Below, one piece after another: positions 4,327-11,784 of a stretch of 64,000 bases of DNA. The first letter of the stretch is position 1, and the number at the start of each line of letters is the position of its first letter. The stretch spans positions 558,001 to 622,000 of the forward strand of contig AP026164.1 of assembly GCA_030295235.1 (NCBI GenBank), written 5' to 3'. Source of the DNA: Fistulifera solaris (lineage: Eukaryota). Both the position numbers and the translations under genes were made by a program. The notes under the pieces were generated by a model. That model ran no database searches, was not told where the DNA came from, and saw only the letters and a list, made by a program, of their open reading frames with translations.

Positions 4327-5334
4327 TAACGACTAAGGTACAAAAGGAGTAGGAACAATGGACTCGGGATCGTCTGCGATCAACTATAGCAGAAAATGTT
4401 TGTCTTCTGTTACTAAACAGTTGCTTTTCGGAGAGGAGGGGACAAAGATCTACCCATTCTTCTCGCGAGACGATCCAAATGGTCCACGCAGGACTTTCTT
4501 GTAGCAATCGCTTAACCGTTCACCATCTACCAGGTATCAACAACAGTAGACTGTTTAGCGACGTCGAACCGACCATAAGAGTTTAAATAGTAAAACGCAA
4601 TAAGAATATGGATAGGTAGCTAAGCGAGGAAATGTTGAAATTGGTAGATGCTTCTTGCTTCTTGCATCGTTTGATTCGTAATGTCGTAAGTAAAATGCCT
4701 TGGGAGCAGTTTGGTCTCAAAAATTACTATAGACCCAAAGTGTTGTCTGTTTTTCACAACGACTGGATTTCAGTCATGAATCATCATTCTTCCGAGTCAG
4801 CGCTACCTAGCCTTTGTTCTTACTGCTAGCATGCTAAACTATGATTGTCCTTATTACATTCAATATTCTTTGGCAGCATTCGCGATGCACTGATTGATTC
4901 GTGATGTCAAGATGCCTTGGGAACGAAAAACTTCCATTGTCTTCTGTCCAATGATTAACCCTAACACTACTATCACTACTTTGGCATGTGAGCCACGTCA
5001 CGAGTGCAGCTTTTTACCAGGTACCTGGAAACGGCGTTAAAATTCTGCCTCGTCGTAGACGCTACGTAGAATCTTGTACTTGGAGGCAGAATTTTAACGT
5101 CCTTCCCCGGTACGGGTTGGTCGCAAATTTTGCAAAGGTCAAGAAGAATGCGAGAACGACGATGGAGGCGGTTCGGTGAACCAATCCAACTTTTTCGACG
5201 TTGTTAATCGCTCTTTATATGCACTAATCCTGTAATTGTGGAAAAAGGGTGTGAAAGGTCGTTTGCCTGCAAATCTGGTCACTCCTAGCTTCTCGTTTTG
5301 AACATCGACCAGCGGACGCCGTCGTAGCCAAATC

Positions 5335-8300
5335 ATGCTGGCAACAGAACCGACTACGCAGAGATCACGGAAATTGAAATATTTACAGCAACAGGAACGG
5401 CGGATTTCTGCACTTTTAGACGTTAGTTACGTAACGAATCGCATCATTGCCGCTTCGCAACCCATTCCGGACGATGAACCAACCTATCGAGATCTGGGAC
5501 GGTCAACTTGTGAAGGAGAATCATTCACGCAAAGCGAACAACAAAGAGACGCCTCGGAACGTAGTGCAGGCATGTATCAGGAATTAGAAGATTCTGTTTC
5601 ATCTGCCCGGCAAGTTTCTTATTCAAATTTTGGTGAAATCGGCAAATCAGACTTTCAAAGTCCCAATGACAACGATGATACGTCCTTAAGCTTACAATCC
5701 GACATCCGGTCTCGCAGAACTTTCAACTCGTCAGTCAGAAACGAAAACAATCCACGAAGAAACTATGCACACTCGTTGGCTAAATTCCTGAATAAGAAAC
5801 ACGGAGAGGGCAATTACCTTTTGTTTTCATTATGCGATGATCAAGCGGATGACTCCACATTGTTTCACCTGCGGCGTCAAATTGTACAATTGCCTTGGAA
5901 ATCCTCCAGAGATAATGCTTCGGAGCTTCCTACGGTCCCTTCATTGCTGGATATCTGCTACGCTTTTCATGCATGGCTAAACATGGAGGGCATTTCGGTC
6001 GGAAACGAAGGTCACTCGTCGCTCAAGCGATCGCAACACGTGGGCGTGATTTATTGTCCCAACGGAAAGACTCGAACGGCTATTGCTATCGCTTGCTATC
6101 TCAAGTTCACTGGTCAAGTGGACAAGACTGAAGATGGCTTCTTACTCTTCCTCGAACAGCGATGTCCGGATAGTGAGCTTTCACCGGCTACTGTGGCCAA
6201 AGCTCTCCCCGCGTCCATTCGTACTTTCTTTAGAAATTTTGATTCCACGATCAAGCTTAAGCGATATATGAATCAACAACCGCTCTTACTTCGGTCAATA
6301 GTAATGCGTGGCCTTCCGGTTGAAGAGAAACCGTGTTTGAATATTTTCAACGCTCAAGGTGACCATGTGTATTCCAGTCACCCTGACTTGTTTGGAGATA
6401 TATCCGTGACGAACCCTTATGCCCAGCAAGATCCCGGTCATTGGGAGGAAGAGGAAGGTTTCTTTCCAGTCAACCAGATCTTGGAAGGGGACTTCTATTT
6501 GCTGTGCCGATTCGGAGGACACTACGCAGACGATCTCTCTGATCCATCAAAGATCATTTTTCGTTATGCAAACACAACAAGTTTTCTTGGAGCTGGACCT
6601 ATCCACTTACGATGTGATAGAGTTGATCTGATGCGTCGATACGCGCACCTAATTGATTACAAGGAATTTTTACTCTCTATGACGTTTGAAGCATCTTGGA
6701 ATTGCTCTAGTCAGCAAGAAGCACCTTTGCTACAGAGAGATAGTATATCTGACAATGTTCTTTACGTGCGAAGCGGGTACGAGGCTATGGAACAAGGCTG
6801 GGAAATAATTTCACGGCATCATTGCGCAAAGCCAGTGACCATCGATGTCGACCTTTTACGAGCCTCCTGTGAAAGTCTACATGATTGTCCTTCTCATCTT
6901 TCCGCTTTGGCCTTGCAGCTTAGCAACTTTGATTTGAATAGCGCTAAAAACATGCTCACAGAAGGAAAAATGAGTCTTTGGTGGAGTCGTCGGACAGCGA
7001 CAGAGGCTCCATCTCTCCAATATCAATCGATTAGCCATACACAGCCCACTGTTCGGCCAGAACATCTTGAAATAAGAAACCGTATTTTAAATTTGGTCAG
7101 GGGTGTTGGTGCACTATCGACATCATTTGGGAATGACTCGTTTCAGACAAGGGCAACGAAGCCATCCACTGAAGATATTGAAGAAGGATACACACCAGTA
7201 AAACGGCCAGATGCAGCTTCTTGGTATACATCCCCATTGATGCGACCCAAGTCGGGCGACATCACAAATGCAATCGGCAAGGCTAAATTCATTTACCCAA
7301 ATTCAGACCATCCATTACGCCGAAAAGAACAACCTCTCGTTCCCTTTTTTCCGCACCCGTTACCTATGAAAGAAGGAACAAGTAGCGTGCTTGATGATCC
7401 CCAGAATCGCAATGCTTTTGACATGTTGATGCTTTCTAGCCCTCCTAACATTTCCATGAATGATTTACTTGCATTGCAGCGTTATCTCAGAGGTGAAAGG
7501 GAGCGTCCTCATCCAGAAACAGCTAAGATATGCGGTGATGGTACAGAAATCATGCTAGGTCGTGGAGCAACCAATGACCTCAGCAAACTACCTGGCGACA
7601 AGAATGAAAGTGTCGTCGACATGAAAAGGACAGCATATCCTTCGGAAAAACCAGCTCTCACAAATGCAAAAACTAATCTCATATCGTATACTCCGTTGAA
7701 AGATGATGAATGTTTTTCGAAGTACTACAAGATGCTGAAGATGGGCCTACCGCGAGGCGCTGTTGAGAATGCAATGACTCGAGATGGCGCTGACTTGTCG
7801 CTGCTTGATTTGGATCCTGAAAAGAGTCTTGTGTCTCAGAGACCGACACAGGCTGTATCCTCGGACCGTCCGTTGAAAGATGATGAATGTTTTTCGAAGT
7901 ACTACAAGATGCTGAAGATGGGCCTACCGCGAGGCGCTGTTGAGAATGCAATGACTCGAGATGGCGCTGACTTGTCGCTGCTTGATTTGGATCCTGAAAA
8001 GAGTCTTGTGTCTCAGAGACCGACACAGGCTGTATCCTCGGACCGTCCGTTGAAAGATGATGAATGTTTTTCGAAGTACTACAAGATGCTGAAGATGGGC
8101 CTACCGCGAGGCGCTGTTGAGAATGCAATGACTCGAGATGGCGCTGACTTGTCGCTGCTTGATTTGGATCCTGAAAAGAGTCTTGTGTCTCAGAGACCGA
8201 CACAGGCTGTATCCTCGGACCGTCCGTTGAAAGATGATGAATGTTTTTCGAAGTACTACAAGATGCTGAAGATGGGCCTACCGCGAGGCGCTGTTGAGAA

Positions 8301-11300
8301 TGCAATGACTCGAGATGGCGCTGACTTGTCGCTGCTTGATTTGGATCCTGAAAAGAGTCTTGTGTCTCAGAGACCGACACAGGCTGTATCCTCGGACCGT
8401 CCGTTGAAAGATGATGAATGTTTTTCGAAGTACTACAAGATGCTGAAGATGGGCCTACCGCGAGGCGCTGTTGAGAATGCAATGACTCGAGATGGCGCTG
8501 ACTTGTCGCTGCTTGATTTGGATCCTGAAAAGAGTCTTGTGTCTCAGAGACCGACACAGGCTGTATCCTCGGACCGTCCGTTGAAAGATGATGAATGTTT
8601 TTCGAAGTACTACAAGATGCTGAAGATGGGCCTACCGCGAGGCGCTGTTGAGAATGCAATGACTCGAGATGGCGCTGACTTGTCGCTGCTTGATTTGGAC
8701 CCTGAAAAGAGTCTTGTGTCTCAGAGACCGACACAGGCTGTATCCTCGGACCGTCCGTTGAAAGATGATGAATGTTTTTCGAAGTACTACAAGATGCTGA
8801 AGATGGGCCTACCGCGAGGCGCTGTTGAGAATGCAATGACTCGAGATGGCGCTGACTTGTCGCTGCTTGATTTGGATCCTGAAAAGAGTCTTGTGTCTCA
8901 GAGACCGACACAGGCTGTATCCTCGGACCGTCCGTTGAAAGATGATGAATGTTTTTCGAAGTACTACAAGATGCTGAAGATGGGCCTACCGCGAGGCGCT
9001 GTTGAGAATGCAATGACTCGAGATGGCGCTGACTTGTCGCTGCTTGATTTGGATCCTGAAAAGAGTCTTGTGTCTCAGAGACCGACACAGGCTGTATCCT
9101 CGGACCGTCCGTTGAAAGATGATGAATGTTTTTCGAAGTACTACAAGATGCTGAAGATGGGCCTACCGCGAGGCGCTGTTGAGAATGCAATGACTCGAGA
9201 TGGCGCTGACTTGTCGCTGCTTGATTTGGACCCAGATAGAAGTCTCATCTCCCAACAAAGCAATATCGCGAACAATAAATTTGGAACTAAGGAGACTCTT
9301 TCAAACACGGCCGAGTTTAATCAGTTTCAAGCCGAGGATATTGCTTCTCAGAAAGCATCTAATTCTCATCTAAGGGCAGAGCCACGACTGAACGCAGGAA
9401 AAAAGAATGTGAGACGGAAAAAGATATATTGGAATCCAATAAACCCCGGGGGAATTGAAAGAGGATTCTTTGTGGTCGTTGGTGAAAGGAAAAGTGCCGA
9501 TGGACAGTTTAAAGTACGATGTTCGAGAGTTCGAGGATCTTTTTACCGAGTCGCCTGATGCAGCAAAAACCAAAACAATAAAAGCAGAGAAAAGAGTAGA
9601 AACAAAGAGGAGCGTCCAGGTTGTTGATGGGAAACGATCCATGAACGGAGGCATTATTCTTAAGCGTTTAAGGATCGAGTATAAGGTGCTTGCTGAGATG
9701 GTCGAATCAATGTAAGTAAGATCTTGATGACGCTTTGTCGTTCAAAGCAAAGCTTTTCTTATGGCATCGTTTACGCCCCAGGGAAATTGGAGCTCTGGAC
9801 GCAACATCGATCAAAGCGCTGAAAGAATACCTACCTACTGCTGACGAAAGAAACCAGCTTCAATCCTATTTACAAGCGGCTGGTGAATCCAAGGAGAAAC
9901 GAGAAAAGCTCTACGGTGATCTGAGTGATTGTGAGAAGTACATGATTTGCATGATGGACGTAGCTAAAGCCGAAGATCACTTCGATTGCATGTTATTCCG
10001 GGTGCAATTCCGATCCAGATTCGACGAACTTACTGAGTGTCTTAGGACGGTAGACAAAGCTTGTGATGAGGTCAGGTTTTCTGAAAAATTTCGACAGATT
10101 ATGGCAATAATACTAACCGTGGTCAATCAAATCAACACGGGTGGCGAAGGAAAGGGTCAGGCTATGGGTTTTAACCTTGAGACACTTTTGAAGCTTAATG
10201 AGGTATGTCTTTTTGGCTTGTCAATGGACATCTTCGCAAATCTCATCTTTCTACTCAAATCAGGCGAAGGCTTTTGATAAAAAAGACAAGCGTTCTTCAA
10301 TATCTCATCAAAGTGGTCAAACGAAACGACGAGTCGCTAATTGAATTTCATGAAGACCTTCCACATACCAACGACTCAGCAAACATTATATTGGATTCTC
10401 TATGTTCTGATATCAAAGCATTAAAGGAAGAACTTGAAAAATTATTTAAAACATCACAAGAGCAAGCAGACGAGCTCTTGGACCTTGGGATAGCATCTAA
10501 ACTCTCTCTTTCGGAATTGAAAGAGCAGAAAACGAACGTTCGTACTCTTTCGGGTGTTTCACAATTCAACCAGGTAGATCATTTAACGGGTAGAACACCT
10601 ATGGAAAGGTTTTGCCTACATGCAAAAGCATCAATCGACGAGGCTAATCAGCTGACTTCGCAAGTCCAGGTCAAGTTTAGAAGCCTTTTGCAATACTTTG
10701 GAGAGGACGAGAAGATGGCTAGTAATGAATTCTTTGGGACACTCAAACGGTTTATCGCAGATTTTAAGAACGCAAATCAAATTGTACAGAAAAAGGAGAA
10801 CATGCGGGTACGTTTTCTGAATAACATACATCTGAAAATTAATTTGAAGCATTGCTCACATTGCTGAAGCTGCGAGAGATGAAAAGACAAGAGAGCATGA
10901 TACAGACAGACCGACGGATCGGCTTAGAGAAACAAAGTAAACAAGCATTCCACGCAACAGAAGTCACCAAATCTAGTCCCATGAGCTCAGCATCAGCGAT
11001 CTCTGCATTCTTTGCAGCAAAGAAGGAAGCGGATTCTCGGCTTTTTGTTTCGGATTCCGCCACCGGTGGCGTGAGTTTTGTTGACACAACACCAATTGAC
11101 TATTCCAGTTCAGCCTCAGGAGAGGCACAGTTGTCAGCTGGTACTGATGTAGACCAAGGCATTGATGGAGAAGCGGACAAAAGGGTGGTTTGTGAACCAG
11201 GAAAATTGTCGCCACATGCAGCAGTTGTGGTCTCCGCGTCTTCTACATCGAGAAAACAAGGCTCCTTTTCAGAAGGAGACCAAACCGATACGGTTAGTAC

Positions 11301-11535
11301 CATCGGCGCTAGCGCTGCAAGCACACCATCTGTAGATTGTTGCGATTCGTCACCCGCAGTCATTTGCGTTGATGAGGAGAAAGAAAAAGGACTTTTTGAA
11401 TTGTCGAATGCTTGCGAAGTAGGCAAGGGTGGAGGCGGCGAAGGAGATTCTAAAATTCCGAGTGTGGCATCGGCTATCTCTGAGTTTTTTGCAGCAAAGA
11501 AATTGGAAAGACATTCGTCAAACACCAAAGTCTGA
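5335..11535 (+). CDS. Formin with N-terminal PTEN-like phosphatase/C2 region, tandem CCDC53-like repeats and FH2 domain
   Basis: LDVSYVTNRIIA and YCPNGKTRTAIAIACYL (PTEN/tensin-like), C2-like segment, FH2 motifs (RRKKIYW, SLW, VVDGKRSMNGGI, GFNLETLLKL, KKTSVLQYL, YFGED..FF). Introns 9712-9781, 10203-10263 and ~10808-10869; indels at ~9450 and ~10280. 3' end uncertain. Confidence 0.9.
7693..9235 (+). repeat. Coding tandem repeat, 177-bp (59-aa) unit, 8 full copies plus 1 truncated
   Basis: Unit starts (ccgttgaaagatgatgaa) at 7693, 7870, 8047, 8224, 8401, 8578, 8755, 8932, 9109; among the full copies I see only a synonymous T>C at 8700. Confidence 0.98.
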
Positions 11536-11784
11536 TTTAATTATCGGTGGAGTTGGTATTGATGTTCCCGCACCACCCGCCAACTGTTGCGATACGGCAA
11601 AAGTCGTGCCTAATGGAAAAGAGGACGATCATTCTCAATTGTCGACTGATGATATTCACACAGAATCTTCGAGGTGAAGAATATTATAGAAGCGATTGAA
11701 GTGAATCTTATCGCACTGAGCGTAACACAACAAAAGATGGAGAAACTAGAGCAAATAAAAAAATCGACCACGAAACTGTTTGCG

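What the first reader, a model, noticed from the sequence alone, without database searches (positions are those of the whole stretch)
7693..9235. Formin with nine CCDC53/WASHC3-like modules where a poly-proline FH1 is expected
Seen: nine copies of PLKDDECFSKYYKMLKMGLPRGAVENAMTRDGADLSLLDLDP lie directly upstream of FH2, and there is no poly-Pro tract there. Knowledge: this motif resembles the C-terminal helical domain of WASH-complex subunit CCDC53 (KYFKML..GVP..AV..KM..DG.DP..LD), and formins normally recruit profilin-actin through a Pro-rich FH1. Similar modules may already be annotated in stramenopile formins. Inference: an arrayed adaptor replacing FH1, i.e. a profilin-independent actin elongation or recruitment mechanism, possibly relevant to gliding or valve morphogenesis.
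Basis: partly seen in the sequence, partly recalled or inferred. Interest (0 to 1): 0.7.

Follow-up and report, generated by a model that had tools for sequence, protein, structure and literature searches.

The report
Formin with helical modules replacing FH1
This diatom gene for an actin-filament-building protein (a formin) lacks the usual proline-rich feeder arm and carries in its place a string of tiny helical domains like the tail of a WASH-complex subunit, a design shared across diatoms and their relatives that may explain how cells without profilin still build actin filaments.

Summary
Confirmed. Window 7693-9234 holds nine copies of a 42-aa module (177-bp unit, at least 99% identical) inside a roughly 2,000-aa PTEN-like/C2-FH2 formin with no polyproline FH1. 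The module passes Pfam's CCDC53 cut-off on the C-terminal 38 positions only. It is under strong purifying selection against the 13-copy homeolog (15 synonymous, 1 non-synonymous change) and appears in spliced, RNA-like contigs. The FH2 frameshifts are assembly errors. The design is not peculiar to this gene: all three formin pairs found in this genome have it, as do 108 of 108 informative FH2-only hits and oomycete, pelagophyte and labyrinthulid formins. No profilin, WASH or Arp2/3 subunit was found in this genome; profilin loss in diatoms is published. Best reading: tethered actin-monomer capture sites doing the FH1-profilin job (about 0.5); no binding partner is shown. A brown-alga-like formin keeps both modules and FH1, so the modules probably predate FH1 loss. 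Databases auto-annotate the domain pair; ten literature searches found no paper on it. The scan noted the same thing earlier on the homeolog (e1-7527631).

The parts
5335..11535 (+). Whole formin gene, four exons (5335-9711, 9782-10202, 10264-10807, 10870-11535), about 2,000 aa once the two spurious bases are discounted (my arithmetic from coordinates)
   Evidence: ORFs; Pfam; introns 9712-9781 and 10808-10869 skipped in RNA-like contigs; middle intron inferred from GT..AG ends and FH2 profile continuity
5755..6174 (+). PTEN-like phosphatase fold; CX5R loop keeps Cys and Arg but has Tyr for His, the stramenopile PTEN-formin pattern
   Evidence: phmmer to solved PTEN, E 4e-4, query residues 141-280; pattern described in PMC2386819 section 9
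6268..6627 (+). PTEN-type C2 domain (weak match)
   Evidence: PF10409 E 0.088, below cut-off; close relative P0001 E 6.8e-4
7693..9234 (+). Array of nine 42-aa CCDC53-C-terminal-like three-helix modules joined by 17-aa linkers, at the FH1 position
9235..9411 (+). 59-aa spacer between last module and FH2; no polyproline
9412..10807 (+). FH2 domain over three exons
   Evidence: PF02181 E 2.5e-6, 7.4e-27, 7.1e-16 for the three pieces
9448..9448 (+). Spurious extra base in a G run: assembly error that shifts the frame at the start of FH2 (a second one lies near 10279)
   Evidence: Base left out in contigs of runs X1 and X2; 10279 left out in X1; homeolog is in frame at the first site
10870..11535 (+). 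C-terminal tail exon, low complexity, with a short amphipathic motif occurring twice
   Evidence: translation; no Pfam family at cut-off

Best explanation
A membrane-targeted (PTEN-like/C2) stramenopile formin in which a beads-on-a-string array of small three-helix modules does the job of FH1 plus profilin: each module captures an actin monomer (directly, or on a non-profilin carrier such as CAP) and the flexible linkers deliver it to the barbed end held by the FH2 dimer, so copy number tunes the elongation or nucleation rate. Shown: the architecture, the position, selection on the module, its spread across stramenopiles, the lack of FH1. Inferred: actin-monomer binding and delivery, membrane targeting, and that the modules made FH1 and profilin dispensable.
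For: Position is fixed: last module within 60 aa of FH2 in 167 of 173 FH2-bearing proteins from module queries and in 108 of 108 informative hits of an FH2-only query; a P5 run within 300 aa in 1 of 173 and 4 of 108. All three formin pairs found in this genome have 2-13 modules there. Variable copy number and S/A/P/E/K/G-rich linkers of 15-73 aa (5th-95th percentile) match a capture-and-deliver tether (model as in abstract of PMC13507409). Module surface and core are strongly conserved (M17 96%, Y14 84%, K13 81%, P23 80%; dN/dS about 0.01). No profilin hit in this genome while cofilin, CAP and capping protein are found by the same search; profilin reported missing in two diatoms and Pythium (PMC4501334 passage; PMC11420354 passage). 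Outside formins the module sits with other actin parts: villin headpiece and WH2-like motifs (P0208) and, by Pfam family, a WASH subunit.
Against: No binding partner is known for this domain in any protein, and it has no sequence or fold match to a solved actin binder. Modules and a true FH1 coexist in P0097, so they need not be functionally equivalent. Some formins carry modules hundreds of residues from FH2 (P0026, P0066) and a module-rich protein pair without FH2 exists in this genome (C23/C24). FH2 alone can elongate with free actin (established knowledge), so a profilin-less cell needs no substitute. The homolog sets are related sequences, largely diatom, and do not count as independent events. 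A negative own-genome search does not prove absence.
Confidence: 0.5

Rival explanations
1. The modules are multivalent docking sites for a non-actin partner (capping protein, CAP, a small GTPase or a membrane-trafficking adaptor) that place or regulate the formin; the lack of FH1 is a separate loss that followed the loss of profilin.
For: Coexistence with FH1 in P0097; occurrence with PH, FYVE and PDZ domains and in non-formin proteins; homology to a subunit of an endosomal complex; capping protein and CAP genes are present. Net charge near zero and small helical fold fit a generic protein-protein module.
Against: Does not by itself explain why the last module keeps a tight 23-45 aa distance from FH2 in most proteins. 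Strumpellin, SWIP and ARPC2 were not found in this genome, so WASH itself is an unlikely partner here.
Confidence: 0.27
2. The modules bind filament sides or the barbed-end subunits (F-actin), raising processivity, bundling filaments or shielding against capping protein, rather than delivering monomers.
For: Small helical domain of villin-headpiece size; co-occurs with a villin headpiece in P0208; diatom raphe actin is stable bundles without directional turnover (PMC11420354 abstract and passage).
Against: No fold match to villin headpiece or any F-actin binder was listed (inconclusive for so small a domain); no basic patch overall (mean net charge 0.03).
Confidence: 0.15
3. The modules act on the formin itself: they dock on FH2 or on each other to dimerise or autoinhibit it, replacing the missing DID/DAD control.
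For: Diatom formins lack GBD/FH3 (PMC2386819 section 7); fixed spacing of the last module to the FH2 start.
Against: Would need one module, not 2-13 near-identical ones; modules also occur without FH2.
Confidence: 0.06
4. The array is an assembly artefact or neutral repeat expansion in a pseudogene.
For: Units are at least 99% identical in DNA; the gene has frameshifts as assembled; copy number not verified by reads.
Against: The homeolog has its own separately homogenised 183-bp, 13-copy array about 85% identical in DNA; module dN/dS about 0.01; frameshifts absent from run contigs; a 207-nt (177+30) unit contig appears in runs that also show spliced joints; relatives have 8-9 diverged copies.
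Confidence: 0.02

Closest known systems
Stramenopile (heterokont) PTEN-formins (Grunt, Zarsky and Cvrckova 2008, PMC2386819; Pruyne 2017, PMC5628938)
   Same: PTEN-like plus C2 N-terminus, CX5R loop with Arg kept and His lost, C-terminal FH2. The 2008 supplement already tabulates FH1 in only 1 of 6 Thalassiosira, 0 of 4 Phaeodactylum and 0 of 6 Phytophthora formins.
   Different: Neither paper names a module in the FH1 position in the parts I saw (CCDC53 occurs 0 times in the 2017 main text; not among the domains in the 2008 tables); the 2017 text writes these proteins as PTP-C2-FH1-FH2.
CCDC53 / WASHC3 (Pfam PF10152), small subunit of the WASH complex
   Same: Each module matches profile positions about 110-147 above the curated cut-off; 112 of 113 aligned modules hit the family at E up to 0.5.
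   Different: No N-terminal trimer-forming coiled coil; arrayed 2-13 times; fused to a formin; other WASH subunits not found in this genome. The passages I read on CCDC53 deal with its coiled coil and give no function for the C-terminal part.
Canonical FH1-FH2 formins (capture-and-deliver through profilin)
   Same: Several binding-site-like elements on a flexible tether just N-terminal to FH2.
   Different: Folded three-helix modules instead of polyproline tracts; no profilin found in the host genome.
Tandem WH2 nucleators and elongators (Spire, Ena/VASP, bacterial WH2 proteins; recalled)
   Same: Proposed working principle: direct, multivalent actin-monomer capture.
   Different: No WH2 match for the module; resemblance is functional conjecture only.

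Membership tests
Formin | FH2 domain | tested here: met
   PF02181 over three exons; frameshifts absent from run contigs
Canonical FH1-FH2 formin | Polyproline FH1 before FH2 | tested here: not met
   No in-frame PPP; no hidden proline-codon run in 5000-11700 except one downstream of FH2
Formin | Actin nucleation and processive elongation | not testable with these tools
   needs biochemistry
Stramenopile PTEN-formin | N-terminal PTEN-like phosphatase fold | tested here: met
   phmmer to solved PTEN E 4e-4
Stramenopile PTEN-formin | PTEN-type C2 domain | tested here: inconclusive
   PF10409 E 0.088 here; E 6.8e-4 in close relative P0001
Stramenopile PTEN-formin | Catalytic loop keeps Arg, lacks His | tested here: met
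   alignment; criterion from PMC2386819 section 9; 48 module-bearing formins show a like loop
CCDC53/WASHC3 | C-terminal conserved region of PF10152 | tested here: met
   37.1 bits, cut-off 24.6, positions 110-147; tested against the profile only, not against an individual WASHC3 sequence
CCDC53/WASHC3 | N-terminal coiled coil that builds into WASH | tested here: not met
   none of 36 own-genome matches starts before profile position 63
CCDC53/WASHC3 | Other WASH subunits and Arp2/3 present in the cell | tested here: inconclusive
   0 matches for strumpellin, SWIP N-terminus and ARPC2; tool warns that this does not prove absence; the closest actin relative is Arp1
UBA / villin headpiece / other solved small helical domains | Fold match | tested here: inconclusive
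   best Z 4.4 (rmsd 3.3, 45 aligned) among 48,161 chains, no Foldseek match at E 0.001; UBA-type Pfam hits in 1 of 113 members each, E 0.017 and 0.21
Actin-monomer-binding module | Binds G-actin | not testable with these tools
   needs binding assay

The most novel reading that the evidence does not exclude
The WASHC3-tail-like module is an unrecognised, ancient actin-monomer-binding domain. Stramenopiles arrayed it in front of FH2 to make self-feeding formins, which let diatoms and some oomycetes discard both FH1 and profilin; the single copy at the end of human WASHC3 would then be a hidden actin-handling site of the WASH complex.
Probability: 0.35. Interest if true: 0.87.

Novelty: new variant of a known kind. 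Interest (0 to 1): 0.66.

Why it matters
FH1-profilin delivery is the textbook way formins elongate filaments. Diatoms are reported to lack profilin and Arp2/3 yet depend on actin for gliding and wall formation, and how they build filaments is open. A conserved folded module sitting at the FH1 position across a eukaryotic supergroup gives a direct, cheap test (module binding, array-FH2 TIRF with varied copy number), and would also assign a function to the unstudied C-terminal domain of human WASHC3.

Tried and rejected
Complex prediction of one module with a diatom-type actin (P0295, 99% identical to the own-genome actin exon) plus ATP and Mg gave no verdict: three runs 0.32, 0.01 and 0.79, median 0.32 against a mark of 0.34, three controls 0.00-0.02, alignments not used; it is not used for or against binding. 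No solved relative by sequence or fold; this shows neither a new fold nor a different one. No listed sequencing run is on record as RNA; X3 and X4 are called RNA-like only because their contigs skip introns, and all four runs are one study. Read depth could not give the copy number because contigs collapse the array. Own-genome searches for profilin, strumpellin, SWIP and ARPC2 found nothing and their controls did not ring. The Atlas gave only CCDC53-labelled clusters at 0.87-0.89 for the module and nothing for the C-terminal part of the non-formin carrier. An own-genome search by alignment and a viral-contig scan could not be run, so diverged own-genome modules may be undercounted and viruses were not examined. 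Named Ectocarpus fragments end before the FH1 position, so FH1 in Ectocarpus itself is not shown. Low-scoring Pfam hits on the array (Brz zinc ribbon, EBNA2, sigma70) were rejected as repeat-summed noise (0 stretches). A gliding- or silica-specific role was rejected because of the oomycete, pelagophyte and labyrinthulid homologs. Papers PMC7594500 and PMC5795050 (passages) gave nothing relevant. Supplements of the two bioRxiv preprints were not seen and could bear on the WASHC3 tail.
Full report
Observation. The repeat is as described. Tandem Repeats Finder reports 7692-9230, period 177, 8.7 copies, 99% matches. Nine modules begin at 7693 and every 177 bases after; each encodes the same 42 residues, followed in eight cases by a 17-residue linker; units 1-8 differ by one synonymous base in total. 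The array is in frame within 5302-9558. No in-frame run of three prolines exists, and a six-frame look at 5200-11700 finds only two short off-frame runs downstream of FH2, so there is no hidden FH1 exon in the gene region.

The gene. Upstream lie a PTEN-like fold (phmmer to solved PTEN, E 4e-4) and a weak PTEN-type C2 match (E 0.088). The catalytic loop keeps Cys and Arg but has Tyr in place of His, which Grunt et al. give as the mark of stramenopile PTEN-formins (PMC2386819 section 9). FH2 begins 59 residues after the last module and spans three exons. As assembled the frame breaks at 9448 and near 10279; contigs of public runs lack one base at each site (9448 in X1 and X2, 10279 in X1), and contigs of X3 and X4 skip the introns 9712-9781 and 10808-10869. 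The homeolog is in frame at the first site. I read these as homopolymer errors in an intact gene of about 2,000 residues. A paralog's FH2 is 100% identical to a record named Fistulifera solaris, and genes come in pairs on paired contigs, so the genome is that diatom or a very close one, with two subgenomes.

Is the array real and used? The homeolog on contig C3 has 13 units of 183 bases, nearly identical among themselves but about 85% identical to the window's array in DNA. Over the 42 module codons the two differ by 15 synonymous and 1 non-synonymous change (dN/dS about 0.01, against 0.12 for PTEN-C2 and 0.11 for the first FH2 exon; small sample). Each array has thus been homogenised on its own while the protein is held constant. 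Contigs of 207 bases (one unit plus 30) occur in X2, X3 and X4, as expected where a tandem unit collapses in an assembly graph; X3 and X4 also show spliced joints, so the repeat is probably in the mRNA, though no run is on record as RNA. The exact number nine is unverified, but close relatives have 9 and 8 diverged copies.

What the module is. One unit scores 37.1 bits (cut-off 24.6) on PF10152 CCDC53, positions 110-147 of 147; 112 of 113 aligned modules hit that family. This was tested against the profile, not an individual WASHC3 sequence. AlphaFold2 on that alignment gives helices at 9-19, 24-34 and 38-42 with mean pLDDT 78 (87-94 in the core). No solved chain matches by sequence or clearly by fold (best Z 4.4). 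[quoted passage not shown]

How widespread. FH2 matches in this genome fall in three homeologous pairs (9 matches); every one has modules directly upstream: 9 and 13, 2 and 2, 4 and 4, and by eye no polyproline. A fourth pair carries six modules without FH2. Module queries returned 240 proteins (120 listed) and 1,185 representatives (150 listed); of the 239 distinct proteins held, 173 have an FH2 hit, in 167 of these the last module ends within 60 residues of it, and 1 has a run of five prolines within 300 residues. Many of the 66 without an FH2 hit end at or just after the array and look like truncated gene calls. To lessen the selection bias I searched with FH2 alone: of 120 listed (157 found), 12 were set aside for having under 80 residues upstream; 108 of the remaining 108 have a module within 60 residues and 4 also have a five-proline run within 300. 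Most of these are one diatom ortholog group with two modules, so they are not independent. Named carriers include pennate and centric diatoms, Aureococcus, Hondaea, Mucochytrium and Phytophthora, the last with the same PTP-C2-modules-FH2 order. Linkers are variable in length and rich in S, A, P, E, K, G, i.e. beads on a string.

Profilin context. No profilin, strumpellin, SWIP or ARPC2 match was found in this genome, while cofilin, CAP and capping protein were; the closest actin relative is Arp1. These negatives are not proof, but agree with print: many diatoms lack profilin and Arp2/3 (PMC11420354 passage citing Aumeier 2015, which I did not read), and profilin was found in all of 26 species except Pythium ultimum and two diatoms, leaving Ectocarpus as the stramenopile that has it (PMC4501334 passages; by subtraction). 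The one module-array protein I found with a clear multi-tract FH1 between array and FH2 start, P0097 (unnamed), is closest to Ectocarpus modules. One case only, but it suggests the order: modules plus FH1 first, FH1 lost where profilin is lost. It also shows the two are not mutually exclusive.

Mechanism. The most economical reading is that the modules are tethered capture sites that feed actin monomers to the FH2-bound barbed end, the role of FH1-profilin in the capture-and-deliver model (PMC13507409 abstract). It rests on position, copy-number variation, flexible linkers, conservation, the missing profilin, and company kept elsewhere (villin headpiece and WH2-like motifs in P0208). No step of binding is shown; I put it at 0.5. 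Rivals are a non-actin partner (0.27), F-actin binding (0.15), self-regulation (0.06) and artefact (0.02). A role specific to gliding or valve formation is not supported.

Novelty. The domain pair is auto-annotated (JGI names such as 'Formin Homology 2 Domain/Subunit CCDC53 of WASH complex'), PTEN-formins of stramenopiles are described, and their lack of FH1 was tabulated in 2008 (1 of 16 formins in three species; PMC2386819 supplement 4). Ten searches of the open library listed no paper whose title or abstract deals with this module in formins; most subscription papers are not covered. Verdict: a real, apparently unstudied variant of formin architecture spread across stramenopiles, with a direct test of how profilin-less cells elongate actin; interest 0.66.

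Noticed in passing
G000 C23 about 782600-788600 and C24 about 757900-763900 (L045, L046): Large non-formin protein pair: N-terminal repeats of a short basic motif, six CCDC53-like modules, a conserved C-terminal region with no Pfam or Atlas match, and several Gly/Arg-flanked WH2-like repeats at the end; relatives among P0186, P0188, P0193, P0199, P0200. Possibly an unknown diatom actin regulator.
   Followed up: partly
P0097: Unnamed brown-alga-like formin with nine modules followed by a true polyproline FH1 and the FH2 start; the only clear coexistence case seen.
   Followed up: partly
P0208: Unnamed protein with two modules, several WH2-like motifs and a C-terminal villin headpiece.
   Followed up: partly
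window:10870-11535: The formin tail has a short amphipathic motif twice (near 10990 and 11480), DAD- or WH2-like by eye; the C21/C22 formin has a WH2-like motif within or after FH2.
   Followed up: no
window:1190-4326: UPF1-like helicase gene (by eye) with a frame change around 2056-2185, intron or assembly indel.
   Followed up: no
G000 loci L040-L046: Many genes in this assembly show single-base frameshifts that differ between homeologs, suggesting frequent homopolymer errors; apparent pseudogenes here should be checked against reads.
   Followed up: partly
G000 C3:1250345-1261292 and C4:1175598-1185654 (L047-L050): Two conventional actin genes in opposite orientation about 6 kb apart on each homeolog.
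   Followed up: no
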